DNA from: Acidobacteriota bacterium
Lineage (GTDB): Bacteria > Acidobacteriota > Vicinamibacteria > Marinacidobacterales > Marinacidobacteraceae
Direction of reading: 5' to 3'
Length of the DNA stretch: 64,000 nt
Assembly (NCBI GenBank): GCA_009835985.1
Contig: VXWI01000115.1
Span: 11,145-75,144 of the forward strand
How positions within the stretch are numbered: the first letter of the stretch is position 1; the number at the start of each line of letters is the position of its first letter. A program made the position numbers and the translations under genes. The notes beneath the pieces were generated by a model, which was not told the origin of the DNA, did no database searches, and saw nothing but the letters and a program-made list of their open reading frames with translations. Below, one piece after another: positions 1 through 61,300 of this stretch.

Positions 1-208
1 GGACCTCCTCGACGTCACTCTCGGTCATGATCGGCCGCAGTCCGACTTCGTCCACCTTGTCGATGGGAACCATGACCAGGGTTGACTTGGACAGCAGGCG
101 CAGGCGATAGAAGCTCGGTCCCGCAGTTCCGTTGGTGGATTCAATACTCTCGACAACGCTGATCCCCTGATTCGGGTAGATCACCTTGTCTCCAACTTCA
201 AACCGCAT
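1..208 (-). CDS. CarD/CdnL-family transcriptional regulator, N-terminal portion (partial; C-terminus lies beyond the window start).
   Basis: Minus-strand reading gives MRFEVGDKVIYPNQGISVVESIESTNGTAGPSFYRLRLLSKSTLVMVPIDKVDEVGLRPIMTESDVEEV, which matches the CarD_TRCF N-terminal domain (Pfam CarD_CdnL_TRCF). The ATG is at 206-208. Confidence 0.7.
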   Translation of the reverse strand, partial: MRFEVGDKVIYPNQGISVVESIESTNGTAGPSFYRLRLLSKSTLVMVPIDKVDEVGLRPIMTESDVEEV

Positions 209-428
209 CAATACTCAGCGACGCCTCCCGGTAGCGTTGTGGATACGCGAACCGTTAATCATACCACACCCCTGAAACGCCGAGAACGCTGGCATTCTTG
301 GGATTTGCCGCGCTGAACGGCCGAGGTCGGCCGAGCTCCCGTTGTCATCGGGATGCCGAAGAACCGTGACCCTTCGTTGGTACACTGTGATTCCGAGCGC
401 CGGTGACTGCTGGACGGCTTCGGAGTTT

Positions 429-516
429 GCCGGAGTGGCGGAATTGGTAGACGCACGGGACTCAAAATCCCGCGGTCCTCGTGATCATGAGGGTTCGAGT
501 CCCTCCTCCGGCACCA
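429..516 (+). tRNA. tRNA-Leu with anticodon CAA (class II, long variable arm; CCA encoded).
   Basis: Acceptor stem gccggag/ctccggc pairs perfectly. The anticodon loop is ggaCTCAAAAtcc. D-loop GGTAGA, T-loop GGTTCGAGTCC, discriminator A followed by CCA. Length 88 nt. Confidence 0.9.
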
Positions 517-567
517 GGTCTGAGCGGACCGGGAACGGGGCCCGCGTCCTGCCGATAACCTGAACCC

Positions 568-900
568 ATGATTCACCCCGAACTCCTCGAGATCCTCTGT
601 TGTCCGGAGACCCGGCAGCCGGTGCGCGAGGCCCCCGAGGCGCTCGTGGAGTCCGTGAACCGGGCCATCCGTGACGGCAGTCTCGCGATGCCCGCCAGCG
701 GCGAGCCCGCCGCGGTCCTCGACGGCGGGCTGGTCCGGGAGGACGGGAAGTTCCTCTATCCGGTGCGCAACGGAATCCCGATCATGCTGATCGACGAGCG
801 CATCGCGATGCCGGCCCCGGAGGGCGAAGACTCAACCGAAGATGTTGAAGAGGATGGCGACTCCGGACATCATCCAGTGGAGACTGGCGCCGGGGCCTGA
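568..900 (+). CDS. Trm112/YcaR-family small protein (DUF343) with an acidic C-terminal tail.
   Basis: MIHPELLEILCCPETRQP...FLYPVRNGIPIMLIDERIA matches the Trm112p-like motif (LLEILvCP...YPIrdGIPvML). Confidence 0.65.
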   Translation: MIHPELLEILCCPETRQPVREAPEALVESVNRAIRDGSLAMPASGEPAAVLDGGLVREDGKFLYPVRNGIPIMLIDERIAMPAPEGEDSTEDVEEDGDSGHHPVETGAGA

Positions 901-1287
901 GAGCATCGCCCGCCGCACCGCGCCGGCCGGCTCCGTCAGTTCGGCCGCCGCCGCCATCTCGGTTCCCATCAGGGGCGGCTCCGCGGTTCCCTCGAAGACG
1001 CCGTCGTAGAGCCGCTGCAACCGCTCGTCGGTGCGGGTGAGCGAGGCGTCCATCCACCAGAACCAGAGCGCGGCCGGGATCGCGGCCAGCCGCAGGAGCA
1101 GCCATCCCTGGAGCACGCCGAAGCCGATGGCGCCCGCCACGAGCGCCACGCTCCCGCGCTTCACCCAGAGCGACTTCCTGGCTACGGCGGCGCGGGAGTC
1201 CTGGATCCGGTCCAGTCCGACGTCCCGGTCCGTACGCGGCGCCTTCGGCCGCTCGGCGCGCAGGGGGGAGCGAGCGGGTCCGGGCAT
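832..1287 (-). CDS. Hypothetical membrane protein.
   Basis: ORF with hydrophobic segments (LVAGAIGFGVLQGWLLLRLAAIPAALWFWW). No recognisable family. Start chosen at MPGPARS. Overlaps the 3' end of the Trm112-like gene on the opposite strand. Confidence 0.3.
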   Translation of the reverse strand: MPGPARSPLRAERPKAPRTDRDVGLDRIQDSRAAVARKSLWVKRGSVALVAGAIGFGVLQGWLLLRLAAIPAALWFWWMDASLTRTDERLQRLYDGVFEGTAEPPLMGTEMAAAAELTEPAGAVRRAMLSGPGASLHWMMSGVAILFNIFG

Positions 1288-1491
1288 GGCTAACAGCCGG
1301 TGGCGGAACTGGCGTGAGCACCGGCCCCCCACCGGGAGAACTGGTGCACGCTGGGCCTCGCTGACAAGGCGCGCGAGGGAGGAATAGCAGCGCTCTTTCG
1401 ACCGAAGCGCAACGATGAGCGAGCCGAAGGCGAGCGGTTCAGCGGGGATTCAGCGGGTGTCGAATGCCGCGGTAGTTTCGTCACAGGCTGT

Positions 1492-1821
1492 CTAGTGAAC
1501 CGTGGAAGAGTCGGTTCCCTGGGGGCGGGGAACGTTGTCGCCCTCCGACTGCTCCACGGCGCTCAACTGGGTCTCGAGCATCTTGATGAGGGCGGGGACG
1601 ATCCGGAAGGGAAGCGTGATCCGGGTCTTGGGATCGGCATGCACGACGGGTTCGCCGGATGCATCGGTGTGCGAGAGGTCCTCCGGCTGGATGCCGGTGA
1701 GACTGCAGAACGTGATCGTCAGATCGAAGGGCGAGTGCGTCGCTTCGCAGAAGTTCGCGTACACCTCCGGACAGGAGACGTCCCGCCGGGCCTTGATCTT
1801 GAACGTTTTCTTCATGTCCAT
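1492..1821 (-). CDS. Small conserved hypothetical protein (DUF3467-like).
   Basis: 109-aa ORF; the YANFCEATHSPFDLTITF motif resembles the DUF3467 family. Codon usage is consistent with the rest of the window. Confidence 0.5.
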   Translation of the reverse strand: MDMKKTFKIKARRDVSCPEVYANFCEATHSPFDLTITFCSLTGIQPEDLSHTDASGEPVVHADPKTRITLPFRIVPALIKMLETQLSAVEQSEGDNVPRPQGTDSSTVH

Positions 1822-1864
1822 GGCGACTCCCGAAGTCGGACCCCGGAAACGGGGTTGCCGACGG

Positions 1865-1939
1865 TAGCGGGGGGCGGACTTGAACCGCCGACCTAAGGGT
1901 TATGAGTCCTTCGCTCTAACCGAACTGAGCTACCCCGCC
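1865..1939 (-). tRNA. tRNA with anticodon CAU (Met elongator or Ile2-lysidine type).
   Basis: Reverse complement is ggcggggtagctcagttcggttagagcgaaggaCTCATAAcccttaggtcggcggttcaagtccgccccccgcta. It forms a cloverleaf with D-stem gctc/gagc, T-arm ggcgg-ttcaagt-ccgcc, and a 7-bp acceptor stem with G1.U72. No encoded CCA. Confidence 0.8.
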
Positions 1940-1984
1940 AGCCGAATTTCGTCGGAACCGATCAATTTTACCACCCGGAACATC

Positions 1985-2000
1985 TGGCACGTCGGTTGCG
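1985..2000 (+). promoter_or_regulatory. Candidate sigma-54 (RpoN) promoter, -24/-12 elements TGGCACG-N4-TTGCG.
   Basis: ctGGCACGtcggTTGCGtt is a near-perfect match to the RpoN consensus TGGCACG-N4-TTGCW. It lies about 50 nt upstream of the Spy/CpxP-like gene (2049) on the same strand. Confidence 0.4.
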
Positions 2001-2048
2001 TTTTCGTGCGATACACCGCGCGCCGAAGCGCGGAAAGGAGTCCCTCCC

Positions 2049-2678
2049 ATGAAGCAGATCACGAGTCCCGCGCCGGTTCGATCCCGCCTCTTCCGCGCCC
2101 TCCTGATCGCGGCGCCGTTCGCCCTGGTCTCCGCCGGGCAGGCCGCCGCGGAATCGCCCCCGGAGCCGGATGCCCGGACTCTCGCGGCGTCCTCCGCGGA
2201 GCCCACGCTCGAGACGGCCTCGCAGCCGGGCCGCGAACGGATGGCGCGCCGGTTCGACCGGCGGTCGGCCGGCCCGGAGCGCCGCGCCCGCCGGGGCGCG
2301 CGCCGTGAAGGCCGCTCGGGTCCGGAGGCGCGCTGGTTCGGACGGCGCGCGGCCGCCGCCCTCGACCTCACCGACGAGCAGCGCGACCAGCTGCGGGACG
2401 CGATGCGGGACATCAGCGACAACCGCCGGGCCAGCCGGCGGGAGGTTGCCGACGCCCGGCGTTCCTTCCAGCGGGCGGCCCGGAACCCCGAGCGCAGCGC
2501 CGAAGAAGTGCAGGCGCTGGGCGAGGCGCTCGGCAGGGCGCAGGCCGACCGGGCGCTGCAGCGGAGGTCCGAACGCGAGCAGATCGCCGCCATCCTGACC
2601 GACGAGCAGCGCGAGCAGCTCGAAACGATGCGCGAGCGCCGGGGACCGCGGGCGCGCACCAGCCGCCGCCGCGGCTAA
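2049..2678 (+). CDS. Periplasmic Spy/CpxP-family stress chaperone (LTXXQ-motif protein).
   Basis: Signal peptide (LLIAAPFALVSAGQAAA). Two LTxxQ motifs (LDLTDEQRDQL, ILTDEQREQLE). Basic, helical, low-complexity remainder, typical of the CpxP/Spy family. RBS aaggag upstream. Confidence 0.6.
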   Translation: MKQITSPAPVRSRLFRALLIAAPFALVSAGQAAAESPPEPDARTLAASSAEPTLETASQPGRERMARRFDRRSAGPERRARRGARREGRSGPEARWFGRRAAAALDLTDEQRDQLRDAMRDISDNRRASRREVADARRSFQRAARNPERSAEEVQALGEALGRAQADRALQRRSEREQIAAILTDEQREQLETMRERRGPRARTSRRRG

Positions 2679-2823
2679 GGGGTCCTTCAGACCGGTGGCG
2701 GGGTCCCTGCCCCGCCACCAGTGAAAGGCGCGCAACGGCTTGGAACCCCCACCGGGAGAACCGTCATGTTCGGTCCACCTGCACACCCCGCCGGGCATGA
2801 AACGGCGGGAACGGCTTGAGCTC

Positions 2824-3043
2824 GGAGCGCCGGCCTCCGGCCGGCATCGCGGCCGCAGGCCGCGAAACGGACGCCGCAGCCGACTCCGATGGCGTGATCC
2901 CTACCGGGAGCGGCTGCCCGCCGCTCGAAACGAGCCGGACCTGGGCCCCACGTTCAGGGGGGAGGAGCGCCATCAGCGCGGGTTTCGCGCTCCCGCGCGG
3001 CCCCCACCGGGAGAACTGGCCGCCGGCCGGAGGCCGGCGCTCC
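2824..3043 (+). mobile_element. MITE-like repeat copy 1, 220 bp, with perfect 22-bp terminal inverted repeats (ggagcgccggcctccggccggc ... gccggccggaggccggcgctcc).
   Basis: About 90% identical over its full length to the reverse complement of 15174-15392. Its 5' half is shared with 28707-28860 and 61238-61265. Intergenic, no coding capacity. Confidence 0.75.
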
Positions 3044-3138
3044 GAGGCGACGCCACCACAGCTGCTGGCCAACTCCGCACGACTGCACTTTCACAGCAAC
3101 TGGCGCGCAGCGCGTGCCGGCTGAAGCCGGCGTTCCAA

Positions 3139-3172
3139 GGAGTCTGAGCCGCATTTCTGCGGCTCAGACTCC
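3139..3172. terminator. Perfect 14-bp stem / 6-nt loop hairpin (ggagtctgagccgc-atttct-gcggctcagactcc); candidate bidirectional terminator.
   Basis: Directly abuts the stop of the minus-strand ORF 3172..3435. No U-tract follows, which is common in high-GC genomes. Confidence 0.4.
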
Positions 3173-13298: not shown

Positions 13299-15119
13299 AT
13301 GAAGACGCTGGCCGCGCTCGCGCTCGTCCTGATCGTCGGCGCCGCCGGATGCGGTCGCCGGGGTCCGCCGCTCGCGCCGCTCCAGGTGGATCCGGAAACG
13401 CCCCGGGTCCTGCCGCTCCGGCAGGAGGACGGCGCGGTCGTGGTGCGCTGGTACGCGCCCCGTCTCGACTCGGGGGGGGACCCTGCGGACCTGCGGCTGC
13501 GGAAGGCGGTCGTGTCCTACCGGATCGTGGACCTCCACGCCCTCGCTGCGGAGGAGCGCGCCTCCCAGCGCCGGCCGCCGGAGGAGGAGGAAGAGGACAC
13601 CGGGGCGGCCTCCGCGGACGACGAGGATGGCGCCGGAGTCCCCGAACCGGAGGACCCCGAACCGGAGGACCCCGTGACCGAGGACTCCGCGACGGAGGAC
13701 TCCGTGACGGAGGACCCCGTGACGGAGGAGCCGGCAGCGCCGGACGCGGCGCCCGCGACGCCGGGGCCGGAGACCCCCGCCGGGGAAGAAACGCCGGTGC
13801 CGGATGCCGTGCCCCCGGAGACCACCGAGCCGGGGCCCGTAGCGGTCGAGGAACCGTCCCCCGCCGGCGGGACTCCGCCCGGGGAAGCGGAAGCGGAGCC
13901 GGAGCAGCAACCGGTGCCGGAGGAGGAGCCCGAGCCGGCGCCCGAGCCGGGAGGGGAGCCGGAACCCGAACCCGAGGGGGAAACCGGGCCCGGCGCCGCC
14001 CAGGAAGCGGAGGGACCGGGAGAACCAGCCCCGGACGAGGCGGGTGGTGATACGCAGGAGGAGGCTCCGGAGCCGGAGGCCGCGCCGGAACCCGAGGGGC
14101 CGCTCCTCGACTACGAGGAACTCGAGTTCGAAGTGCTCTCCGAGATCGAGTCGGAAGTGCCCGGGGAGGAACGGGTCCTCGAGCTGCCGGTGGAACCGGA
14201 CTGGATCGGCCGCCGCCTGGAGATCACCGTCCGCTACGAGGCGCGCGGCGGCGCGAGCGAGGAGAGCGAACTCCAGTCGCTCGACGTCACCGGCCCGCTG
14301 CCGCCGGTGGCGGGGGTCCTCGTCGAGGTCGGGCCGCGCGAGCTGACCATCCGCTGGCAGGATCCCCGCGGCGCCCTGGGAGAGGCGCCCCTGGCGGACC
14401 CGCTGTTCGAGGTCTTCCGCCGGCGCGGAGGGGAATCCGAACGGCTGGGACGGTCCTTCGGCCCGACCCAGACGGACGCCGACGTGGTGTGGGGGGAAGA
14501 GGTCTGTTACCGCGCGCGGCTCGTCGTGGCCGGGGACGCGGAAGAGCGGGTGATCCCCGACCCCGGGCCCGTCGCGCCGGCCGGCCCCGCGGGAGGCGAT
14601 AGCGCCGGGGAGTCCCCGGCTCCGGACGAGACCGGCGAGCCTGGCGCCCTCGATACATCCGGCGCGGAGCCCGCAGATCCCGAAGGGGAAGCGGCGACCG
14701 CGCCCGGGGATCCCGAGGCGGAGGAGGCGCCGTGGACCCCGATCCCGATCCGGGTCCCCGGCGCCGGAACCGGCGCGCTGAGCGTCGGGCCGATGTCCGC
14801 CGAGGAGTGCGTTACCCCGGTGGACGTCTTCCCGCCGGTCCCGCCGTCGGATCTCCGCCTCTTCTGGCGCGCCGAGGCGACCGAACTCAGTTGGAGGGAC
14901 TCGGCCTCCACCGACGTCGCCGGGTATCACGTCTACCGCTCCGGCCCGGATGGCAGCGGCTTCCAGCGCCTGACCGAGTCGCCGGTCGAACAGACGAGCT
15001 ACACCGACGCGGCGCGCGATCCGCGGGGCGCGTATCGCTACGCCGTCACGGCGGTGGACGGCGCCGACCCGCCGAACGAGAGCCTGCCCTCCGACCCCCG
15101 CACCGCGAATCCGCGCTAA
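13299..15119 (+). CDS. Lipoprotein with a long acidic Pro/Glu-rich tandem-repeat region and C-terminal fibronectin type III-like domains.
   Basis: Lipobox MKTLAALALVLIVGAAGC. Degenerate 15-nt (5-aa) in-frame tandem repeats at ~13641-13730 (PEPEDPEPEDPVTEDSATEDSVTEDPVTEE). FN3-like segments (LRLFWRAEATELSWRDSASTDVAGYHVYRSGPDGSGFQRLTESPVEQTSYTD). Confidence 0.6.
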   Translation: MKTLAALALVLIVGAAGCGRRGPPLAPLQVDPETPRVLPLRQEDGAVVVRWYAPRLDSGGDPADLRLRKAVVSYRIVDLHALAAEERASQRRPPEEEEEDTGAASADDEDGAGVPEPEDPEPEDPVTEDSATEDSVTEDPVTEEPAAPDAAPATPGPETPAGEETPVPDAVPPETTEPGPVAVEEPSPAGGTPPGEAEAEPEQQPVPEEEPEPAPEPGGEPEPEPEGETGPGAAQEAEGPGEPAPDEAGGDTQEEAPEPEAAPEPEGPLLDYEELEFEVLSEIESEVPGEERVLELPVEPDWIGRRLEITVRYEARGGASEESELQSLDVTGPLPPVAGVLVEVGPRELTIRWQDPRGALGEAPLADPLFEVFRRRGGESERLGRSFGPTQTDADVVWGEEVCYRARLVVAGDAEERVIPDPGPVAPAGPAGGDSAGESPAPDETGEPGALDTSGAEPADPEGEAATAPGDPEAEEAPWTPIPIRVPGAGTGALSVGPMSAEECVTPVDVFPPVPPSDLRLFWRAEATELSWRDSASTDVAGYHVYRSGPDGSGFQRLTESPVEQTSYTDAARDPRGAYRYAVTAVDGADPPNESLPSDPRTANPR

Positions 15120-15173
15120 ACGGCCGCGCTCGCTGGTCGGCGGGTCGCCCAGCCGCCGTGGTGGCGCCGCCTC

Positions 15174-15392
15174 GGAGCGCCGGCCTCCGGCCGGCGGCCA
15201 GTTCTCCCGGTGGGGGCCGCGCGCGAGCGCGAAACCCGCGCTGATGGCGCTCCTCCCCCTGAAGGTGGGCCCCACGTTCGGCTCGTTTCGGGCGGCACGC
15301 AGCCTTTCCCGGTTGGGATCACGCCATGGGAATCGGCTGCGGCGTGCGTTTCGCGGCCTGCGGCCGCGATGCCGGCCGGAGGCCGGCGCTCC
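15174..15392 (-). mobile_element. MITE-like repeat copy 2 (219 bp), inverted relative to copy 1; same perfect 22-bp terminal inverted repeats.
   Basis: Its sequence equals the reverse complement of 2824-3043 with about 90% identity, e.g. ...ggccagttctcccggtggggg... is the reverse complement of cccccaccgggagaactggcc. Lies between the lipoprotein gene and tal. A 10-bp-stem hairpin (cgtttccgcc-N11-ggcggaaacg) follows at 15403-15435. Confidence 0.75.
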
Positions 15393-15513
15393 GAGCTCCG
15401 GCCGTTTCCGCCATTGTCGTGACGGGCGGAAACGCCGCGTCAGTCGTGCCGCCAACCGGTAGAATCGCGCCGGGGCCGGGCCGAATTCCGGATTGACGAG
15501 GTGCCGGGCGCGC

Positions 15514-23780: not shown

Positions 23781-26555
23781 GTGGCTCCGGCGCCGCGTCC
23801 GGCGTTCGGCGTGCCGGCGGTCCTCCTTGCCGGCATCCTGTCGGGGGTGTTCGCGGCGCCCGCCGCCGGCGGGCAGGACGTTGCCGGTCAGCCCGAGGAT
23901 CCACTGTCCCGGCGCGTGGACTCGGTCGTGGTCCGCTGGGCCGACGGGAGCAGCGAACCGGTGCCCGAGGAGGTCTCCCGGCTGATCTCGGTACGTCCGG
24001 GAACCCGCTTCCGCCCGCTGGTCGCGCGTCAGTCGGTGAAACAGGTGTTCGCGCTCGGCCGCTTCCGCGATGTCCGGGTGCGTTCGGAGGAGGCGCGGGG
24101 CGGGGATCTGCGGCTCATCTTCGAACTCGACCCCATCCCGAGGATTGCCCGGCTGAACGTGGAGGGGGCTCCGCCCGGCGAGGATCTGAACCTCATCGCC
24201 ACGCTCGGACTGGAGGTCGGTGAGACCGTCCCGGAGGATCTGCCGGTTCGGGCGGAGGCCGGCGAAAACTGGCTTCGCTCGCGCGGTTTCGTGAGCGCGG
24301 AAGTGATCATCCGGAGCGTTCCGGACGGCCGGGATGCGCTGCTCGAGGTGGTGGTGTCCGCCGCCGACCGGGCCCGCGTGGTTTCGATCGAGGCCCTCGG
24401 GGTGGGGGAAGAACCGGGCCGCGACCTCATCGCCGCGCTGGGGATTTCGCGGGATGATCCCTGGATCGAGGCGGACGTGACGGCGCGGCTGCCGGAAGTC
24501 GAGGAACGGCTCCGCGACCGCGGGTTCCTGTTCGCCACGGCAAGCCTCGATTGGAGGCTCACCGACGCAGGGGACGTCCAGGTATTCCTGTCCGTGGACC
24601 CCGGCCCCGCAGTAACCCTGGAGGTGCAGGGGTTCGGCGCCTCTCAAGGAGACGCACAGGGCGTCGTGGACGGGCTTTCCGGACAGACACTGACGCTCGA
24701 TGCGATCGAGGCCGCCAGGCAGGAGCTTCTCGACGAACTCCGGCGCGAGGGACGGCGGGACGGCGCCGTCGCCGTGGAGAGCGTGGAGAGCGCGGACGGC
24801 GGACACCGGACCTTCCGGTTCTCGGCGGACCCGGGCCCTCGTTACGTTGTCGGCGAGGTCTCCTCGGAGGGTGCGCCTCCCCTCGAGGTGGACACCGTCG
24901 CCGAGGTCCTGCTGCCGCTCCAGCCCGGCCGCCCCTACCGCGAAGAGGAGTGGCGGGCGCTGACCGACAGTGTGCGCCGGACGCTCCGCGGTCTGGGGTA
25001 CTTCCAGGCCGAGGTGGCGCCGCTGCCGCCCCGGCCCGGGGAGCCCACGGACGATGGCGTTCCGATCGATCTCCGGGTGCGGATCGAGCCGGGTCCGCTC
25101 GCTGCCGTGGCGGCGGTCCGCTTCGAGGGCAGTGCCGCGTTCACCGACGCCGAGCTGGCGGAGGCGGCGGCCATCGCACCCGGTGCGCCGTACGTCGCCG
25201 AAGAGATCGTGAACGCCCGCGAAGACCTGGAGGCCTTCCATCGGAACCGGGGATACCTCGAGGCGGTGGTGGAGGTCGAGGCTCCGGTGGACCCCGTCAC
25301 GCACCAGGCGGAGGTCGTCTTCCGGATCCGCCCCGGGAGTTACTTCACGGTCGGCGGCATCATCGTGGCGGGCCTCGACACCACGCGGGATTCGGTGATC
25401 CGCTCCCGCCTCCCCTTCGCGGAGGGGGACGCGCTGGGGAGCGGCGATCTCCTGGAAGTGCGCCGGCGTCTCGTGTCCATGGGGGTTTTCCGCAGCGTGG
25501 ACGTGAACCTGCTGGAACCCGAGGAACCGATCAGCGAACGGAACGTGTTGATTCGCGTGGTGGAGGGCCCGCGCACCAGCATCGGCTACGGCGCGGGCTA
25601 CAGCGAGCGCGAGCAGGTTCGGGGAGAGGGCGAATGGACCCGGAACAACCTCTTCGGGATGGGCCACACCCTGAGCCTGTTCGGCCGGTTCTCGCTCAAG
25701 GGCACGCGCATGGTGGCCACCTACCGGGGGGCGGAGAGCGTCGAGGGCGAGATCCCCATCTTCGTGAGCGCGTTCCGGGAGTCCCAGGACCGGGAGAGTC
25801 TCGACTTCATCCGCTCCGGCATCGGCGTCCAGGTGACCCGCAGGATCCTCGGACGGAACGTGTTCCTGCGCTACGACCTCACCACCAGCGAGTTGTTCGA
25901 TCTGAAGATCAACCCGATCCAGATCGATCGGAACTTCGCCGACAACCTCTGGCTCTCGGCGGTCTCGGCGTCGGTGGTCACGGACACCCGCGACGATCCC
26001 GTGGACCCCCGCCGGGGCCGGTTCGGCATCGTGGACGTGGAGTGGTCGTCGGCGCTCCTCAGGTCCCGGGCGCCGTTCCTGAAGGGCCTGGGGCAGCAGT
26101 ATCTGTTCTTTCCCGTCGGCGAAGCGATCGTCCTCGCCGTCAGCGGGCGGCTCGGCCTCGCGTGGACGCTGGGTGCGGACGAGCCGGCCCTGGTTCCGAT
26201 CACCGAGCGGTTCTTCGCCGGGGGAGCCACGAGCCTGCGCGGTTACAAGCTGGACCGCGCCGGACCGCTCGATCCGAGCGGTTACCCGGTCGGCGGGAAC
26301 ATGCTCATCGTGGGGAACCTCGAGGTCCGGTTCCCCATCGTGGGGAGCCTCCGGGGCGCCGTGTTCTCGGATCACGGCGGGGTCTACAGCGAGGTCCGTT
26401 CCTTCCGCCTTCCGGACCTGGGCCATAACGCCGGCGCCGGGCTCCGCTGGAACACCCCGCTGGGGCCGCTCCGTTTCGACTACGGGATCCGGCTGGGCGA
26501 CGTCGGCGACGCCCCCCGCGGGCAGTGGCACTTCACGATAGGCCACGCCTTCTAG
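23781..26555 (+). CDS. Omp85-family outer membrane protein assembly factor (BamA/TamA-like) with multiple POTRA domains and a C-terminal D15 beta-barrel.
   Basis: Signal peptide after the GTG start; repeated POTRA-like segments; C-terminal barrel with GYSEREQ..., GGATSLRGYKLDRAGP, and terminal ...WHFTIGHAF. Roughly 925 aa. Confidence 0.8.
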   Translation: MAPAPRPAFGVPAVLLAGILSGVFAAPAAGGQDVAGQPEDPLSRRVDSVVVRWADGSSEPVPEEVSRLISVRPGTRFRPLVARQSVKQVFALGRFRDVRVRSEEARGGDLRLIFELDPIPRIARLNVEGAPPGEDLNLIATLGLEVGETVPEDLPVRAEAGENWLRSRGFVSAEVIIRSVPDGRDALLEVVVSAADRARVVSIEALGVGEEPGRDLIAALGISRDDPWIEADVTARLPEVEERLRDRGFLFATASLDWRLTDAGDVQVFLSVDPGPAVTLEVQGFGASQGDAQGVVDGLSGQTLTLDAIEAARQELLDELRREGRRDGAVAVESVESADGGHRTFRFSADPGPRYVVGEVSSEGAPPLEVDTVAEVLLPLQPGRPYREEEWRALTDSVRRTLRGLGYFQAEVAPLPPRPGEPTDDGVPIDLRVRIEPGPLAAVAAVRFEGSAAFTDAELAEAAAIAPGAPYVAEEIVNAREDLEAFHRNRGYLEAVVEVEAPVDPVTHQAEVVFRIRPGSYFTVGGIIVAGLDTTRDSVIRSRLPFAEGDALGSGDLLEVRRRLVSMGVFRSVDVNLLEPEEPISERNVLIRVVEGPRTSIGYGAGYSEREQVRGEGEWTRNNLFGMGHTLSLFGRFSLKGTRMVATYRGAESVEGEIPIFVSAFRESQDRESLDFIRSGIGVQVTRRILGRNVFLRYDLTTSELFDLKINPIQIDRNFADNLWLSAVSASVVTDTRDDPVDPRRGRFGIVDVEWSSALLRSRAPFLKGLGQQYLFFPVGEAIVLAVSGRLGLAWTLGADEPALVPITERFFAGGATSLRGYKLDRAGPLDPSGYPVGGNMLIVGNLEVRFPIVGSLRGAVFSDHGGVYSEVRSFRLPDLGHNAGAGLRWNTPLGPLRFDYGIRLGDVGDAPRGQWHFTIGHAF

Positions 26556-26564
26556 CATTGGAAC

Positions 26565-26604
26565 GCCGGCTTTAGCCGGCACGCGCTGCGCGGTAGCGCA
26601 GCGC
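26565..26604 (+). terminator. Two adjacent GC-rich hairpins (gccggc-ttta-gccggc and gcgctgcgc-ggta-gcgcagcgc) following the Omp85 gene stop.
   Basis: Perfect 6-bp and 9-bp stems beginning 10 nt after the TAG stop. No U-tract. Confidence 0.35.
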
Positions 26605-26677
26605 ACGGCGCAATCCCGACGTGCCCGGTGGGACGCCGGAACCCGGCAATCGGCCCGGGCTGTGCCAGACTGTCCCC

Positions 26678-28695: not shown

Positions 28696-28706
28696 CCGGG
28701 CGCTTC

Positions 28707-28860
28707 GGAGCGCCGGCCTCCGGCCGGCATCGCGGCCGCAGGCCGCGAAACGCATCTTCCGTGGTGGCAACGCGGCCCCTCAGTTTCACGCGGGCCTGGC
28801 GCCCGGTACGCGCGCCTCGCCTCGCTGCGCTCGGCGATGCCGACCAGAGGTCGGCGCTCC
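28707..28860 (+). mobile_element. MITE-like repeat copy 3 (divergent/truncated, 154 bp).
   Basis: First 47 nt identical to copy 1 (ggagcgccggcctccggccggcatcgcggccgcaggccgcgaaacg). Degenerate right inverted repeat gccgaccagaggtcggcgctcc. Inserted 12 nt after the sigma-70 stop. Confidence 0.6.
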
Positions 28861-28894
28861 ACCCCCGAACCGACACGACGGATACGATGGCGCC

Positions 28895-30505
28895 ATGCGC
28901 CGTCTTCTGCCGTTCCCCACCGCCCTCGTGGGTGGGGCGCTTGCCGCCCTGGCCCTGTTGCTCCCCGCCCGCGGCGATTCCGGGCAGCCCCGTGAGATCG
29001 AACTCACCACCGCCACGATCGCCGAGATCCATGAGGCGGTGGATGCCGGCGCGCTGACCGCCGAGCGGCTCGTCGAGCTGTGTCTCGCGCGGATCACGGC
29101 CTACGACGATCAGGGGCCGCGGATCAACGCCGTCATCTCGGTGAATCCGAACGCCCGGCAGCGGGCTCGGGAGCTGGACGCCGAGCGGGAGCGGTCGGGG
29201 CGCCGCTCACCGCTGCACGGGATCCCGGTCCTCCTCAAGGACAACTTCGACACCGCGGACATCCCCACCACCGCGGGATCCTTCCTGCTGCAGGATTCGC
29301 GCCCCCCGGACGATGCCTTCGTGGTGCGGAAGCTGCGAGAGGCTGGCGCGATCGTGCTGGCCAAGGTGAACCTGAGCGAGTTCGCCTCCGGGGGCGCCAT
29401 GAGTTCGCTCGGCGGGATCACCCGGAACCCGCACGATCCCGCTCGCACCCCCGCCGGTTCTTCGGGTGGCACCGGCGCCGCGGTGGCGGCCGGATACGGT
29501 TTCGTCGGGCTGGGTTCCGACACCGGCGGTTCCATTCGCGGCCCCTCCACCGCGAACGGACTGGCCGGTCTCAAACCGACGCTGGGGCTCCTGAGCCGCG
29601 ACGGCATCGTGCCGCTGGCGCTCTCCTTCGACACCGGCGGACCGATGGCGCGCAGCGTGTACGACGTGGCGGTCTCGCTCGGAACGATGGTGGGCGTGGA
29701 CGAGGCGGACGCCGCGACGTCGAGGAGCGCCGGGCAGTTCCACCACGACTACACCCAGTTCCTGGACCAGGAGGCGCTGTCCGGGGCGCGCCTCGGCGTA
29801 GCCCGCGATTTCATGGGCGCCGACCGCGAGGTGGACTGGGCGATTGAGGCGGCGCTCGATGCGATGCGCGACGCCGGGGCCGAGGTCGTGGACGTGCGCT
29901 TTCCGGAGTGGCTGCTCGAGGTCGAGAGCGACTTCTACCTGGCGGTGCGCTGGCCGGAGTTCCGCAAGCAGATCGCGGAGTACCTGCAGGGCCTCGGTGA
30001 CGGCTATCCGCAGACGCTCGACGAGCTGGTCGAGCGCTCCATGCGCCTTCCCTCCCACGGCGACGGGCTGCGTCCCAACCCGGGACGCTGGAGCCTGTTC
30101 CTCCGCGAGAACGCCAGCGGGGAGGTCACCGACTACGCCCACCTTGCGGTGCGGGAGCATGCGCTCCCGTTGGTCCGCACCCTGGTGGAAGGCCTGATGG
30201 ACCAGGAAGACCTCGACGCCATCGTCTATCCGACCTCGCCGACGCGTCCGGCGCTCCTCGATCGGCCGCCGGATCTCTACGGACCCTCGCCCGTACGCCT
30301 CGCCAACATGAGCGGGTTTCCGGACCTGATCGTGCCCGCGGGGTTCACCGGGGGAGGACTCCCGGTGGGCATCTCGTTCCTCGGCCGGGCTTTTAGCGAG
30401 CCTCGCCTGCTGGCCCTCGGCTATGCCTTCGAGCAGCGGGTCAGGGCCCATCGGGTGCCCGCGCACACGCCGCCGCTGCCGGGCGAACGGATCACCATTC
30501 CGTGA
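28895..30505 (+). CDS. Secreted amidase (amidase-signature family).
   Basis: Signal peptide MRRLLPFPTALVGGALAALALLLPARG. Amidase-signature block GGSSGGTGAAVAAGYGFVGLGSDTGGSIRGP and the HGIPVLLKDNFDT motif. 536 aa. Confidence 0.85.
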   Translation: MRRLLPFPTALVGGALAALALLLPARGDSGQPREIELTTATIAEIHEAVDAGALTAERLVELCLARITAYDDQGPRINAVISVNPNARQRARELDAERERSGRRSPLHGIPVLLKDNFDTADIPTTAGSFLLQDSRPPDDAFVVRKLREAGAIVLAKVNLSEFASGGAMSSLGGITRNPHDPARTPAGSSGGTGAAVAAGYGFVGLGSDTGGSIRGPSTANGLAGLKPTLGLLSRDGIVPLALSFDTGGPMARSVYDVAVSLGTMVGVDEADAATSRSAGQFHHDYTQFLDQEALSGARLGVARDFMGADREVDWAIEAALDAMRDAGAEVVDVRFPEWLLEVESDFYLAVRWPEFRKQIAEYLQGLGDGYPQTLDELVERSMRLPSHGDGLRPNPGRWSLFLRENASGEVTDYAHLAVREHALPLVRTLVEGLMDQEDLDAIVYPTSPTRPALLDRPPDLYGPSPVRLANMSGFPDLIVPAGFTGGGLPVGISFLGRAFSEPRLLALGYAFEQRVRAHRVPAHTPPLPGERITIP

Positions 30506-32011: not shown

Positions 32012-32569
32012 ATGTCCTGGATTCACATGGTTCCGCCCAGCGCCCCCGAGGGGCAGGCGGGGCGGCTCGGGGAGCTCTACCGGCGGCACCGCCGTCCCGA
32101 CGGACTGGTGGACAACATCCTGAGGGTGTCCAGCCTCAATCCGGAAGCGCTGGAGCACCACCTGTCGCTCTACGAGCACCTGATGCGGGGCGAATCGGGC
32201 CTCAGCCTCGCCGAACGGGAACTGATCGCGGTCGCCGTCTCGGTAGTCAACGACTGCCACTATTGAATCGAGCATCACCGGAGAGGTCTTCTCCGGCTGA
32301 CCCGGGACCCGCAACTGGTGGACGCCCTCCGCCGTGATCCGGAGGGTTGCCCGCTGGCGCCCCGCCAGCGGGCGCTCGCCGACTACGCCATCAAGCTGGC
32401 GCGGACCCCGGGCAGCCTGGTGGAGCAGGACCTCGCGCCCCTCCGAAACGTGGGACTCTCCGATCGCGACATTCACGACGCCTGTGCGGTCGCGTCCTAC
32501 TACTGCTTCGTGAACCGCATGGCGAACGGCCTGGGGGTGGAGCTGGAGGAGACGGAAGCCGGCCGGTAG
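32012..32569 (+). CDS. Carboxymuconolactone-decarboxylase/AhpD-family (peroxidase-related) protein with an in-frame UGA (32264-32266) at the active-site CxxC position; candidate selenoprotein.
   Basis: ORF 32012-32266 ends ...AVAVSVVNDCHY-TGA. The same frame continues as IEHHRRG... and joins the track ORF 32318-32569 (both in frame with 32012), giving a contiguous 185-aa CMD domain. The motif becomes VNDCHY-U-IEHH, corresponding to the family's CxxC-x3-H. Confidence 0.6.
32278..32296 (+). promoter_or_regulatory. Candidate bacterial SECIS hairpin (ccggaga-GGUCU-tctccgg), 11 nt 3' of the in-frame UGA.
   Basis: 7-bp perfect stem with apical loop GGUCU. The loop resembles the E. coli fdhF SECIS apical loop (cagGUCUg), and the 11-nt UGA-to-hairpin spacing matches it. 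Confidence 0.5.
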
Positions 32570-32680
32570 CCCGGATAGCGCACCGGCCTGGAACGCCGGT
32601 CTCCAGACCGGCACCGCGGCGCTCCGCACCGCGCACGTCGCAACCCCACCCACCCTCATGACGAGGTCCGGGAGTACGCG

Positions 32681-42689: not shown

Positions 42690-44264
42690 CTACGGCGTCA
42701 CGGGAGGGGTGGTTGGCGGCGGTTTCCGGTGACCGGTCGCCTGCTCGTAGGCGTACGAGATCCGGAACAGCGCGCCCTCGCCGAGGGCGTTCCCCAGGAG
42801 CTGGAGTCCACCCGGAAGTCCTGACGGAGTGAAGCCCATGGGAACGGTGACCGCCGGAAACCCGGTGGGAGGGGAGAGCTGGGGCGAGTTGTTTCCGTCG
42901 GGCGTGGTCAGGTCGCCCAGGAGCCGCGGGGGGTTGCTCCAGGTGGGGAAGGCAAGCGCGTCGAGGTCCTCGGCTTCGAACAGGCCCCCGACCTCGGCCC
43001 GCAGTTCACCGGCGCGCCGGTTCGCTTCGGCGCAGACGTCGTCCGGCTCGCCTTCGACTTCGAGGGCGGTCTCGAGTCGTGGCCGGATCGACGGGTGGAA
43101 GTCGCCGCCCTCCACCAGGTCCTCGAGCGTCGTCACCGGGGCGTTCGGTCCCAGGCTTGCCAGATAGGCCTCGAGCTGGGCGCGGAAGGGGTTGCACCAC
43201 AGCGATCCCTCGGCTTCGAGCCCCTCGATCCGCACCGGGTCCACGACGGTGACCCCCAGCGCCTCGAGTTCGGCGAGGGCCGCTTCGAAGAGCGCCGAGA
43301 TGTCGGCATCCGCGGTCTCGGTGTCGCTGAGCTGGCGGACGACACCGATCCGGAACTCGGTGAGCGGGCCCGCGTCGAGGTACTGGAGGTAGTCGCCCTC
43401 GCGCTCGAACCCCTCCGTCGCCTCGTCGGCTGGGTCCGGCCCCGCCAGCACGTCGAAGATCCGCACGCCGTCTTCCACGGTGCGCGCCATCGGGCCGCCG
43501 ATGTCCCGGAAGAGATTGAGCGGCACGATCCCGTCGCGACTCGTCAGGCCCATCGTGGACCGGATGCCGAAGAGGGCGTTGTGGGACGAAGGCCCGCGGA
43601 TGGAGTTGCCGGTGTCCGTCCCGAGGCCCACGGCCCCGAAGCTCGCGGCCACCGCGGCTCCGGTGCCTCCGGAGGATCCCGCGGGTACCCGATAGGGGTC
43701 GTAGGGATTCCTGACGTGACCCGGAATGACCGAGCCGAGGCTCTGATAGGCGCTGAAGGCGAACTCGGCCATGTGGGACTTGGCAAGCACGATGGCGCCC
43801 GCTTCCCGGACCCGCTGCACCTGGAAGGCGTCATCCGGCGGGATCGAGTCCGCGAGCGACGCCGATCCGGCGCTCGTGGGAAGGTCCGCGGTGTCGTAGT
43901 TGTCCTTCACGATCATCGGGACGCACTCGAGCGGCCGGTCCGGGCTGAGCCCGGAACCCGCGAGGCGCACGTCGGCTTCGGCGGCCCGCTCCATCGCCCG
44001 CGGATTGACCGTGACGATCGCGTGGAGGGCCGGGCCCTCCCGGTCGTAGGCCTCGATCCGGGCCAGGTAGGCCGCGACCAACTCCGCGCAGGTGAAGTCG
44101 CCGGCCTGAAGACCCCGGTGGATCCCGGCAATATCGAGTTCCACCACCTCGAGACCGGCTGCCGCTTCCGGCGCCGGATCGCCGCAACCGATCATCGCGA
44201 TCGACCCGAGGGTGACCAGGGCGATGCCGCCTTGTTTCCCGACCTTCTCCAATGTCCCGAACAT
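42690..44264 (-). CDS. Amidase-signature family lipoprotein; paralogue of the 28895-30505 amidase.
   Basis: Lipobox LVTLGSIAMIGCG. Amidase-signature block GGSSGGTGAAVAASFGAVGLGTDTGNSIRGP; PMIVKDNYDT. 524 aa. Confidence 0.85.
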   Translation of the reverse strand: MFGTLEKVGKQGGIALVTLGSIAMIGCGDPAPEAAAGLEVVELDIAGIHRGLQAGDFTCAELVAAYLARIEAYDREGPALHAIVTVNPRAMERAAEADVRLAGSGLSPDRPLECVPMIVKDNYDTADLPTSAGSASLADSIPPDDAFQVQRVREAGAIVLAKSHMAEFAFSAYQSLGSVIPGHVRNPYDPYRVPAGSSGGTGAAVAASFGAVGLGTDTGNSIRGPSSHNALFGIRSTMGLTSRDGIVPLNLFRDIGGPMARTVEDGVRIFDVLAGPDPADEATEGFEREGDYLQYLDAGPLTEFRIGVVRQLSDTETADADISALFEAALAELEALGVTVVDPVRIEGLEAEGSLWCNPFRAQLEAYLASLGPNAPVTTLEDLVEGGDFHPSIRPRLETALEVEGEPDDVCAEANRRAGELRAEVGGLFEAEDLDALAFPTWSNPPRLLGDLTTPDGNNSPQLSPPTGFPAVTVPMGFTPSGLPGGLQLLGNALGEGALFRISYAYEQATGHRKPPPTTPPVTP

Positions 44265-50037: not shown

Positions 50038-50038
50038 A

Positions 50039-50216
50039 CGGCCTGTGGTGGAACTCACGCGGCATTCGAACGGCGATGCATCCCGGCTGAACGTGCCGCT
50101 TCGCGCCCCTCATCGTTGCGTTGCGGTCGGAATACACTCGGTATTCCTCCCTTACGCGCCTTGTCAGCCGGGCGCCTCACCGTTCTCGGTGCTCACGCCA
50201 GTTCCACCACAGGCCG
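50039..50216 (+). ncRNA. Candidate structured RNA or palindromic element: a 17-bp perfect long-range inverted repeat enclosing about 144 nt with internal hairpins.
   Basis: 5' arm cggcctgtggtggaact (50039-50055) pairs perfectly with 3' arm agttccaccacaggccg (50200-50216). An internal 7-bp hairpin ggaatac-actcg-gtattcc lies at about 50139-50157. Begins 2 nt after the aroF stop and ends 25 nt before the next ATG. Single copy in the window. Confidence 0.3.
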
Positions 50217-50240
50217 TTCAGGCGTGATTCGCCCGTCCCC

Positions 50241-60926: not shown

Positions 60927-61229
60927 ATGTCCCGTTCCGGCCTCCTCGTCCTGTTCGCGGTGGCGGCGTTCCTGGCGCTGCTCCCCGCCGACGGGTCCGG
61001 CCAGTGCTCCATGTGCCGGACGGCGCTGGAGCAGAACGAAGAGGTTGCCGCCAGCTTCAACAATGCGATCCTGTTCCTGCTGGCGATGCCGTACGCGGTC
61101 TTTGCCTCGGGAGTCGGCTACGTGCTGGTGTCGCGCCGGCGACGCGCGCGGCGGTCCGCCGCCGTGACGGCTCCGGAAGTCCGCGCCGAATTGCTTCCCG
61201 CCGACGATCCGATCAGCGTCACCTCCTGA
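60927..61229 (+). CDS. Small membrane protein with signal/TM segment, CxxC motif (GQCSMCRT) and a second TM helix; possibly oxidase-associated.
   Basis: 100-aa ORF immediately downstream of the oxidase subunit genes with 5-nt spacing. No family confidently recognised. Confidence 0.4.
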   Translation: MSRSGLLVLFAVAAFLALLPADGSGQCSMCRTALEQNEEVAASFNNAILFLLAMPYAVFASGVGYVLVSRRRRARRSAAVTAPEVRAELLPADDPISVTS

Positions 61230-61237
61230 CGGCGTGT

Positions 61238-61300
61238 GGAGCGCCGGCCTCCGGCCGGCATCGCGCCCCACAGGGGAGCGAGACATGCGTGGCTGTTCAG
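61238..61300 (+). repeat. MITE-like repeat copy 4 (5' fragment or solo terminal inverted repeat).
   Basis: ggagcgccggcctccggccggcatcgcg matches the first 28 nt of copies 1 and 3, then diverges. No right inverted repeat found. Begins 8 nt after the upstream stop. Confidence 0.5.

What the first reader, a model, noticed from the sequence alone, without database searches (positions are those of the whole stretch)
2824..3043. Family of roughly 220-bp MITE-like elements with perfect 22-bp terminal inverted repeats, four copies in 64 kb
Copies at 2824-3043 and 15174-15392 are about 90% identical full-length reverse complements of each other. Each is bounded by ggagcgccggcctccggccggc / gccggccggaggccggcgctcc. 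A divergent copy (28707-28860) shares the first 47 nt, and a 5' fragment occurs at 61238-61265. All are intergenic, three of them 8-55 nt past a gene stop (sigma-70, the FN3-lipoprotein gene and the small membrane protein at 60927-61229). None has coding capacity. This pattern fits a non-autonomous transposable or REP-like element that has recently spread. Such elements often supply terminators, sRNAs or regulatory hairpins.
Basis: seen in the sequence. Interest (0 to 1): 0.6.

Follow-up and report, generated by a model that had tools for sequence, protein, structure and literature searches.

The report
REP-type hairpin repeats served by RAYT
The "220-bp MITE" is an inverted pair of two-hairpin REP-type repeats, a known class of bacterial intergenic repeat; in related Vicinamibacteria genomes the same repeat flanks a REP-associated tyrosine transposase (RAYT) gene, so this is a new example in Acidobacteria rather than a new kind of element.

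Summary
The sequence observation holds. The 22-mer GGAGCGCCGGCCTCCGGCCGGC occurs six times exactly and once with three mismatches (0.02 expected by chance).

The 22-mer is not a transposon end. It is the head of a ~55-nt module: GGAGC, a constant hairpin, AT, a second hairpin that varies in sequence but stays paired, then AAAC. The window holds 10 such modules, not four elements: two homologous inverted doublets, one doublet with a different interior, one complete singlet and three diverged modules.

Similarity between copies runs 23-80 nt beyond the "terminal" repeats, and there is no target-site duplication. More than 200 modules occur in related Acidobacteriota (Vicinamibacteria) MAGs. They are almost all extragenic, arranged as singlets, tandem arrays and inverted pairs that are always heads-outward.

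In six related loci from at least five genomes, arrays of these modules in that same geometry flank a single Y1/HUH gene. That gene passes NCBIfam's "REP-associated tyrosine transposase" model, and its only solved relative is E. coli TnpA-REP.

Verdict: a REP/BIME/REPIN-like family of a RAYT system, persisting over the long term rather than recently spread. It is a new member of a known kind.

An unexplained 19-nt insert inside the element is the most unusual lead.

The parts
2744..2823 (+). "Leader" segment 5' of copy 1. It is itself a dispersed repeat and contains a variant of the 19-nt motif at 2747-2761.
   Evidence: It is conserved upstream of the left module in L074, L057, L080, L122, L063, L071, L001, L100 and L090. 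Its short ORF is not conserved.
2818..2871 (+). REP-type module forming the left arm of copy 1. Layout: GGAGC 2824-2828; hairpin 1 2829-2845 (GCCGGCC TCC GGCCGGC); AT; hairpin 2 2848-2864 (CGCGGCC GCA GGCCGCG); AAAC 2865-2868.
   Evidence: The R1 model scores it 66.4 bits, E=1.9e-14.
2872..2978 (.). Core between the two arms of copy 1. It includes a third small hairpin on each side, ending in the GATGGCG motif.
   Evidence: It is 88% identical to 15239-15344 and also present in L074, L019, L061, L057, L080 and L063. Covariation in the core is weak.
2979..3049 (-). REP-type module forming the right arm of copy 1. Its hairpin 2 is of a different class (CGCGC GGGA GCGCG), and an extra segment separates hairpin 1 from hairpin 2.
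   Evidence: The R1 model scores it 33.4 bits. Counterparts without the insert in L074, L057 and L080 read GAT at that point.
2999..3021 (+). Optional insert GGCCCCCACCGGGAGAACTGGCC, built around the 19-nt core CCCCCACCGGGAGAACTGG.
   Evidence: The 15-nt core occurs 4 times in the window against 0.02 expected. It is present or absent at loops and junctions of otherwise homologous repeats, in both orientations.
3044..3103 (+). "Trailer" segment 3' of copy 1, also a dispersed repeat.
   Evidence: It matches L019, L074, L004 and L075 at 83-90% identity.
3085..3142 (-). Diverged module of the GGAAC subfamily (GCCGGC TTCA GCCGGC). It lies about 30 nt downstream of the stop (3172) of the 87-aa gene and reads in that gene's sense direction.
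   Evidence: The R1 model scores it 20.7 bits. It is 97% complementary to 26558-26592 (pair I8).
15144..15415 (-). Copy 2 of the composite doublet, between the lipoprotein gene (stop 15119) and the transaldolase-like gene (start about 15514). Its modules are at 15168-15238 (+, with the insert) and 15345-15398 (-).
   Evidence: See (33.0 and 67.3 bits), with gene context.
28701..28754 (+). Module forming the left arm of a third doublet. It begins 11 nt after the sigma-70 gene stop.
   Evidence: The R1 model scores it 68.7 bits.
28811..28866 (-). Module forming the right arm of the third doublet. Hairpin 1 carries a compensatory G:C to A:T change (GCCGACC TCT GGTCGGC), and hairpin 2 is of the CGCCGAGC GCA GCGAGGCG class.
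   Evidence: The R1 model scores it 50.7 bits. The 22-mer has 3 mismatches here.
61232..61287 (+). Complete single module. It begins 8 nt after the stop of the 100-aa gene 60927-61229.
   Evidence: The R1 model scores it 61.0 bits across the full model, positions 1-56.
26554..26607 (+). Diverged single module of the GGAAC subfamily, starting at the stop of the 934-aa outer-membrane-protein-like gene.
   Evidence: The R1 model scores it 27.4 bits.
32584..32639 (+). Diverged single module of the GGAAC subfamily, about 15-20 nt after the stop of a small predicted gene (32318-32569).
   Evidence: The R1 model scores it 33.0 bits. Counterparts in L015 and L036 carry the 19-nt insert in the hairpin-2 loop.

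Best explanation
The 22-nt "terminal inverted repeat" is the head of a REP-type module of about 55 nt: (C/T)TC-GGAGC, hairpin 1 (constant), AT, hairpin 2 (variable sequence, conserved pairing), AAAC. A third small hairpin often follows.

The roughly 220-bp object is two such modules of different hairpin-2 classes, in inverted heads-outward orientation around a spacer. That makes it a REP doublet of the REPIN/BIME kind, set inside a mosaic of other small repeats (leader, trailer and a 19-nt insert).

The family belongs to a REP-RAYT system of Vicinamibacteria (Acidobacteriota). A conserved chromosomal Y1/HUH tyrosine transposase gene (RAYT) sits between arrays of the same modules in the same geometry.

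**Inferred mechanism, not shown here.** The RAYT recognises the folded hairpin plus its 5' GGAG foot on single-stranded DNA, as E. coli TnpA-REP does with GTAG-REPs. It cuts and rejoins there. This spreads, duplicates and deletes modules in extragenic DNA over long periods, with mainly vertical inheritance.

**Likely secondary effect, also inferred.** The modules sit just past stop codons in the sense direction, so they end up in mRNA 3' ends, where stable hairpins can protect or terminate transcripts.
For: **Module and structure**
- Repeats beyond chance.
- The module was defined from 134 sites.
- Both helices keep pairing through compensatory changes. Hairpin 2 has 5 of 8 (A2) and 6 of 8 (A3) pairs with double changes, and hairpin 1 has 4 of 7. 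In all, 95% of cells are paired against 20-45% when partners are slid, and 0 of 500 shuffles reach the observed score.

**Abundance and arrangement**
- There are 10 modules in the window and 210 in 100 related loci.
- 85 of the 102 stretches hit by the exact 22-mer come from Acidobacteriota/Vicinamibacteria MAGs.
- 152 of 154 modules lie outside predicted genes. Contexts are 53 tandem, 51 convergent and 14 divergent.
- Neighbouring pairs are 20 of type +-, 0 of type -+ and 25 tandem.

**RAYT association**
- The L084 ORF matches Pfam Y1_Tnp at 32.7 bits against a cut-off of 23.
- Its only PDB match is 4ER8, TnpA-REP.
- Homologs score 92-97 bits on NCBIfam NF047646, "REP-associated tyrosine transposase", against a cut-off of 80.
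- The HUH and Tyr motifs are invariant across the aligned homologs.
- (+) modules lie upstream and (-) modules downstream of the gene in L084, L113, L114, L115, L116 and L117.
- The gene sits in conserved synteny: thyA-folA-ridA-RAYT-pepM16, or gmk-RAYT-coaBC.

**Dispersal and age**
- The same composite occurs next to unrelated genes in other genomes.
- The orthologous copy-1 site carries (+)...(-) modules in five further genomes, with differing numbers and spacers.
Against: - No RAYT lies in the window, and I could not locate the one in the source genome.
- The head is GGAG, or GGAA in the diverged subfamily, not the GTAG or CGTC of the described REP superfamilies.
- The module has two hairpins and is longer than the classic 20-40 nt REP.
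- The two arms of a doublet differ in hairpin 2, so the doublet is not the symmetric hairpin of textbook REPINs.
- I found no clean filled-versus-empty site for a module. At the sigma-70 site, the relatives at 94% protein identity carry a diverged module-like sequence rather than nothing.
- Binding, cleavage and mobility are inferred by homology only.
- Gene calls come from my own crude caller.
- The A3 alignment is fitted to the model's structure, so its pair counts lean towards that structure.
Confidence: 0.82

Rival explanations
1. The element is a classical MITE: a deletion derivative of a DDE-transposase insertion sequence (IS630/Tc1, IS5 or similar), moved by cut-and-paste through its terminal inverted repeats.
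For: The inverted repeats are perfect over 22-25 nt and about 176 nt apart, the element is non-coding, and there are several copies.
Against: - Homology between copies continues 23-80 nt past the left repeat and 30-60 nt past the right one.
- No direct repeat flanks the element.
- Each "TIR" is itself a hairpin, and it also occurs alone and in tandem arrays.
- The only gene found between inverted copies is a Y1/HUH RAYT.
Confidence: 0.03
2. The modules are primarily functional RNA elements of mRNA 3' ends, such as U-tract-less terminators or stabilisers against 3' exonucleases. On this reading they are kept at each site by selection, and the link to the RAYT is incidental.
For: - Placement is close to stop codons: 22 of 39 sense singlets start within 22 nt of the stop.
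- Singlets between convergent genes lie nearer the gene they are sense to in 21 of 25 cases.
- When the nearest gene end is a 3' end, 93 modules are sense and 20 antisense.
- Many hairpin-2 loops are GNRA-like or GCA.
- The copy-1 site is occupied across species.
Against: - No U-tract follows the hairpins; AAAC does.
- No Rfam family matches.
- G-U pairs (18) do not clearly exceed A-C pairs (10).
- Much of the sense bias follows from the fixed heads-outward geometry. Singlets between tandem genes are only 14 sense to 9 antisense.
- Inverted arrays around a RAYT gene and long tandem arrays are not expected for a purely RNA element.
- This reading is compatible with the main explanation as a secondary role.
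Confidence: 0.1
3. The element is a locally duplicated regulatory sequence confined to this region.
For: None beyond the clustering of copies within 64 kb.
Against: - The scan found more than 100 exact 22-mer sites, and more than 200 modules score against the model in other genomes.
- Full-length composites occur next to unrelated genes.
- Metagenome assemblies break inside the element.
Confidence: 0.01

Closest known systems
REP sequences with RAYT/TnpA-REP ("REPtrons"); E. coli and Pseudomonas REPs (Nunvar 2010; Ton-Hoang 2012; Di Nocera 2013, PMC3733652)
   Same: - Short extragenic hairpin repeats with a conserved 5' foot.
- Occurrence as singlets, dimers and clusters.
- A Y1/HUH gene flanked by the repeats in inverted orientation, which passes NCBIfam's RAYT model and matches PDB 4ER8.
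   Different: - The foot is GGAG/GGAA, not GTAG/CGTC.
- The unit has two hairpins, one constant and one variable in at least 10 sequence classes within a single genome.
- The host is Vicinamibacteria (Acidobacteriota).
- The RAYT is a roughly 235-aa form with YLPH...NHVH...YIRNNP...DWPWSS motifs.
- Arrays of up to about 11 modules flank the RAYT gene.
REPINs (REP doublets forming hairpins; Bertels & Rainey 2011, PMC3116915)
   Same: - Two inverted REPs plus a spacer, non-autonomous, with the same geometry as the repeats around the RAYT.
- The same doublet is found at non-orthologous sites.
- The RAYT is vertically inherited in conserved synteny.
   Different: - The arms are heterotypic, with different hairpin-2 classes.
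- The unit is longer (about 190-230 nt) and sits within other repeats.
- Whether the doublet or the single module is the replicating unit was not established.
E. coli BIMEs (bacterial interspersed mosaic elements)
   Same: A mosaic of REP subtypes in alternating orientation with recurrent linker motifs, located at gene 3' ends. This comparison rests on my own knowledge of BIMEs.
   Different: There is no sequence relationship, and no IHF-type site was identified. The linker motifs here are the leader, the trailer and the 19-nt insert.
TIRYT/"TIRtron" elements with double-palindromic inverted repeats, reported among others in Acidobacteria (Di Nocera 2013, PMC3733652, section 16)
   Same: A Y1 transposase gene in Acidobacteria flanked by inverted repeats, some of them double palindromes and some forming moderately abundant dispersed families.
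   Different: Those were described in Acidobacteriia-type genomes (Koribacter, Terriglobus, Granulicella, Acidobacterium). I did not compare sequences with them.
Small dispersed repeats of cyanobacteria (Elhai 2008, cited in PMC3116915). This comparison applies only to the 19-nt insert.
   Same: Very small (about 20 nt) repeats found nested inside other repeats. This rests on my recollection of that paper, which is not held in the library.
   Different: A different phylum and a different sequence. Mobility of the 19-nt insert is not shown here.

Membership tests
REP (repetitive extragenic palindromic) sequences | A short unit that folds into a stem-loop, with pairing maintained by compensatory change | tested here: met
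   In some searches, 95% of cells are paired and 10 of 15 pairs show double changes. The slid controls give 20-45% paired. Caveat: A3 is fitted to the model.
REP (repetitive extragenic palindromic) sequences | High copy number, restricted to extragenic DNA | tested here: met
   There are 10 modules in 64 kb and 210 in 731 kb of related loci. 152 of 154 modules lie outside predicted genes. The whole-genome count for the source organism was not obtainable.
REP (repetitive extragenic palindromic) sequences | A conserved GTAG (or CGTC) tetranucleotide at one end | tested here: not met
   The head is GGAG(C), or GGAA(C) in the diverged subfamily. It occupies the analogous position but has a different sequence.
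REP (repetitive extragenic palindromic) sequences | A RAYT gene flanked by the same repeats in inverted orientation | tested here: met
   This holds in L084, L113, L114, L115, L116 and L117. All are related genomes. It was not tested in the source genome, and the window holds no RAYT.
REPIN | [quoted passage not shown] | tested here: met
   The doublets are 2818-3049, 15168-15398 and 28701-28866. Across all loci there are 20 pairs of type +- and none of type -+.
REPIN | The whole doublet forms a symmetric hairpin | tested here: inconclusive
   The outer 25 bp are perfect and the fold has z = -6.4. However, the arms carry different hairpin-2 classes, and core covariation is weak.
REPIN | The doublet is the replicating unit | tested here: inconclusive
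   The same core and arms occur at 7 or more sites in 3 or more genomes next to unrelated genes. Singlets and tandem arrays are equally common.
MITE of a DDE transposon | Inverted repeats form the ends of the repeated unit | tested here: not met
   Homology extends beyond both repeats.
MITE of a DDE transposon | Target-site duplication | tested here: not met
   The flanks TTGAGCTC|...|GAGGCGAC only extend the inverted repeat. There is no direct repeat.
MITE of a DDE transposon | A parent IS with the same ends encoding a DDE transposase | tested here: not met
   None was found in the 102 fetched loci. tblastn found only a Y1/HUH gene between inverted modules. The search was limited to the fetched DNA.
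RAYT / TnpA-REP (tested on the protein in related loci) | Y1_Tnp fold with HUH and catalytic Tyr motifs, passing the curated RAYT model | tested here: met
   Pfam PF01797 gives 32.7 bits against a cut-off of 23. NCBIfam NF047646 gives 92-97 bits against 80. PDB 4ER8 matches at E=4e-7. NHVH and Y(I/V)xxNPV are invariant.
RAYT / TnpA-REP (tested on the protein in related loci) | Low copy number and conserved chromosomal position (domesticated, vertically inherited) | tested here: inconclusive
   Two recurrent syntenic contexts were seen across genomes. Copy number per genome was not counted.
Intrinsic terminator | A GC-rich hairpin followed by a U-tract | tested here: not met
   Hairpin 2 is followed by AAAC(G/C), with no T run.
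Any Rfam family | A score at or above the gathering threshold | tested here: not met
   Only two tRNAs pass in the window. The best local match is M23 at 17.5 bits against a threshold of 41.2.

The most novel reading that the evidence does not exclude
The 19-nt segment CCCCCACCGGGAGAACTGG, present inside both full-length copies at 2999-3021 and 15196-15218, may be an independently propagating ultra-small insert. On this reading it lands in single-stranded loops and junctions of hairpin repeats.

It is present or absent at hairpin-1 loops, hairpin-2 loops, inside hairpin 2, between the two hairpins, and at four different points of one copy of an unrelated ~200-nt repeat. It occurs in both orientations. 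When present it adds a small CCC-ACC-GGG hairpin with an AGAAC bulge.

If true, either the Y1/HUH enzyme or an unknown activity pastes a 19-mer into single-stranded loops. Alternatively, the segment is a selected protein- or RNA-binding loop motif that is repeatedly grafted onto existing hairpins.
Probability: 0.3. Interest if true: 0.6.

Novelty: new member of a known kind. Interest (0 to 1): 0.3.

Why it matters
REP-RAYT systems have been studied almost entirely in Proteobacteria. This one gives a well-defined example in marine, probably sponge-associated, Vicinamibacteria.

It has features that can be used experimentally:
- an invariant recognition-type hairpin joined to a freely covarying second hairpin;
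- a strict heads-outward geometry;
- placement immediately after stop codons.

There are also practical consequences. The modules break metagenome assemblies, and they generate spurious ORF calls of 100-300 aa across the arrays. Annotating them would improve MAGs of this clade.

The result does not open a new category of element.

Tried and rejected
- **Rfam.** Neither the gathering nor the permissive threshold gave anything beyond two tRNAs.
- **Coding potential.** The leader could encode a 17-aa peptide behind a GGGAGA site, but the start codon and frame are not conserved in L057 and L080.
- **Structured RNA in the core.** RNAalifold on six copies gave only 6 of 69 pairs with double changes, most of them in the arms.
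- **Strand test by wobble pairs.** G-T 18 against A-C 10 is not decisive.
- **Sense-orientation bias as proof of RNA function.** The bias is largely explained by the fixed (+)...(-) geometry. Only the singlets between convergent genes remain informative.
- **Empty-site search.** All same-species contigs carry copy 1. Orthologous sites in five other genomes are all occupied, though by different sets of modules. The sigma-70 site in two relatives carries a degenerate module. No clean insertion boundary was obtained.
- **RAYT of the source genome.** It was not found with the look-ups available. P0023 turned out to belong to another MAG.
- **Cross-phylum check.** A Haloferula RAYT homolog (56% identity) is flanked by a different palindrome, not by the 22-mer.
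- **Recalled query sequences.** The RayT hit was then confirmed independently.

Full report
**1. The observation**

The 22-mer GGAGCGCCGGCCTCCGGCCGGC is exact at 2824+, 3022-, 15174+, 15371-, 28707+ and 61238+. It has three mismatches at 28839-. Shuffled sequence gives 0.02 matches.

Copies 1 and 2 are reverse complements at 89-95% identity. Their inverted repeat is 25 nt long.

The similarity does not stop at the repeats. It runs 2801-3073 against 15144-15415. Against a copy in another genome (L074) it runs 2746-3103. No direct repeat flanks the unit. A 1-nt indel between copies breaks every long ORF that crosses it.

**2. What the "TIR" is**

Of these, 85 come from Acidobacteriota/Vicinamibacteria MAGs.

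L068 (OZ220713.1, Vicinamibacteria) is about 91% identical to window 6-2515. The window therefore comes from a close relative. Identical sequence occurs in GCA_028875395.1 and in several metagenome contigs.

Lining up all 134 sites shows a common module: (C/T)TC-GGAGC, hairpin 1 (GCCGGCC TCC GGCCGGC), AT, hairpin 2, AAAC. Hairpin 2 has at least ten different stem sequences, but it always pairs.

On a 39-sequence alignment, five of the eight hairpin-2 pairs show changes on both sides. On 142 distinct model hits, six of eight hairpin-2 pairs and four of seven hairpin-1 pairs do so. There, 95% of cells are paired, against 20-45% when partners are slid, and 0 of 500 shuffles reach the observed score. 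That second alignment is fitted to the model, so it leans towards the structure.

**3. Inventory in the window**

Covariance model R1 finds ten modules:
- 2818-2871+
- 2979-3049-
- 3085-3142-
- 15168-15238+
- 15345-15398-
- 26554-26607+
- 28701-28754+
- 28811-28866-
- 32584-32639+
- 61232-61287+

Its right arm has a compensatory G:C to A:T change in hairpin 1. The "5' fragment" is a complete singlet. Three modules belong to a diverged GGAAC subfamily and were missed.

**4. Arrangement and context**

R1 finds 210 modules in 100 related loci. Using my own crude gene caller, 152 of 154 modules are extragenic. By context, 53 lie between tandem genes, 51 between convergent genes and 14 between divergent genes.

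Neighbouring modules are either tandem, often with a 77-93 nt period, or inverted. Inverted pairs are always (+) then (-), 20 to 0. Outer lengths cluster at 190-233 nt.

Arms of a doublet carry different hairpin-2 classes. This recalls the alternating REP subtypes of E. coli BIMEs, a comparison that rests on my own knowledge.

Sense singlets often start 0-22 nt after a stop codon (22 of 39). Between convergent genes they lie nearer the gene they are sense to in 21 of 25 cases.

**5. The associated gene**

Independent checks followed:
- Pfam Y1_Tnp scores above its cut-off.
- The only PDB match is 4ER8, TnpA-REP.
- Homologs pass NCBIfam NF047646, "REP-associated tyrosine transposase".
- Several sources name homologs RayT.
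- The HUH (NHVH) and Tyr (YIRNNPV) motifs are invariant.

In L084 a dimer of modules with the exact 22-mer lies on each side of the gene, in inverted orientation. In L113, L114, L115, L116 and L117, which come from other genomes, arrays of (+) modules lie upstream and arrays of (-) modules downstream, up to about 11 copies.

The gene sits in two recurrent contexts: thyA-folA-ridA-RAYT-pepM16 and gmk-RAYT-coaBC-udg. This fits the published picture of RAYTs as low-copy, vertically inherited genes (PMC5581495).

The window itself has no RAYT. I could not identify the RAYT of the source genome.

**6. Age and mobility**

The same arms and core occur in L074, L019, L061, L057, L080 and L063 at 70-89% identity. 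None of these loci shares flanking genes with the window.

Contigs of several assemblies end inside the element.

The LTXXQ / 87-aa-gene intergenic region that holds copy 1 carries (+)...(-) modules in five other genomes, whose LTXXQ protein is 65-89% identical. The spacer ranges from 228 to 667 nt and holds two to six modules.

The sigma-70 site in two relatives at 94% protein identity holds only a degenerate module-like sequence.

Sites therefore persist while their content turns over. "Recently spread" is not supported.

**7. Interpretation**

The evidence fits a REP-RAYT system, with the roughly 220-bp object as an inverted REP doublet set in a mosaic of other small repeats. The leader 2744-2823 and trailer 3044-3103 are themselves dispersed repeats.

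Recognition of the hairpin and foot on single-stranded DNA, and cutting and joining by the RAYT, are inferred from the E. coli system. They are not shown here.

A role of the hairpins at mRNA 3' ends is plausible from their placement but is not demonstrated. No U-tract follows the hairpins. The wobble-pair test is inconclusive. Most of the sense bias follows from the fixed geometry.

**8. Comparison with the literature**

REPs, REPtrons and REPINs are well described (PMC3733652, PMC3116915, PMC6006769). Y1 transposases flanked by inverted repeats, some of them double palindromes, were reported in other Acidobacteria (PMC3733652, section 16).

This family differs in several respects:
- a GGAG foot;
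- a two-hairpin unit with a variable second hairpin;
- its host clade;
- a roughly 235-aa RAYT whose Tyr motif fits Quentin's subclasses 2.4 or 2.7 (PMC6006769, Table 1).

I did not resolve the subclass. The family is a new member of a known kind.

**9. Unexplained**

A 19-nt segment, CCCCCACCGGGAGAACTGG, lies in both full-length copies between hairpin 1 and hairpin 2. It is absent from otherwise homologous copies in L074, L057 and L080.

Elsewhere it sits in hairpin-1 loops, in hairpin-2 loops, inside hairpin 2, and at four points of one copy of an unrelated ~200-nt repeat. It occurs in both orientations. When present it adds a small hairpin.

I have no tested explanation for it.

Noticed in passing
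window 1290-1495 (+) and 50035-50218 (-); L126 2533-2790 compared with L127: A second dispersed repeat of about 200 nt ("family B") has terminal inverted repeats CAGCC(G/T)GTGG...CCACAGGCTG and abuts TAA/TAG-type sequences. It is present directly after the sigma-70 stop codon in L126 but absent at the same site in L127, which looks like a genuine MITE-like insertion polymorphism. Copies also occur in L122, L007, L071, L069 and L118. There is no Rfam match.
   Followed up: partly
window 1327-1345, 2747-2761, 3002-3020 (+) and 15201-15219 (-); L126, L071, L015, L036, L070, L085, L116, L090, L012, L048, L073: The 19-nt motif CCCCCACCGGGAGAACTGG occurs as an optional insert in loops and junctions of several different hairpin repeats, in both orientations. 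It includes a tandem duplicate (L071 1614-1650) and four inserts in one family-B copy in L126.
   Followed up: partly
L026 1754-1840, L076 6983-7070, L086 6951-7038, L091 4011-4098, L094 (Opitutaceae MAG SMAG_U2401): The identical 22-mer forms the arms of compact inverted doublets of about 88 nt, with a central GC hairpin, in a Verrucomicrobiota genome. The head sequence is therefore shared across phyla. A Haloferula RAYT homolog, by contrast, is flanked by a different palindrome.
   Followed up: partly
L113, L114, L116, L117, L084; L115, L123: The RAYT gene occupies two conserved chromosomal contexts: thyA-folA-ridA-RAYT-pepM16 and gmk-RAYT-coaBC-udg. Its orientation relative to ridA is flipped in L117. 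Two contigs of one sample (L113 and L114) differ in the number of flanking modules. Gene callers place spurious ORFs of 229-304 aa across the arrays.
   Followed up: partly
window 3139-3172: A perfect 14-bp hairpin, GGAGTCTGAGCCGC ATTTCT GCGGCTCAGACTCC, abuts the stop codon of the 87-aa gene on the minus strand. It looks like a terminator and is separate from the repeat family.
   Followed up: no
window 2690-2722: The hairpin GGTGGCGGGG...CCCCGCCACC lies just after the LTXXQ gene stop. It is conserved in the orthologous loci L118, L119 and L121, unlike the repeat modules that follow it.
   Followed up: no
window 29210-29387 and 43757-43934: A 178-nt stretch is 71% complementary between the two positions. 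It lies inside two predicted genes on opposite strands (28895-30505 + and 42690-44264 -), which are probably paralogs.
   Followed up: no
window 13633-13722: A 15-nt tandem repeat inside the lipoprotein gene encodes a Pro/Glu/Asp-rich low-complexity stretch.
   Followed up: no
window 429-513 (+) and 1865-1939 (-): Two tRNA genes, the only Rfam matches at gathering threshold in the window.
   Followed up: no
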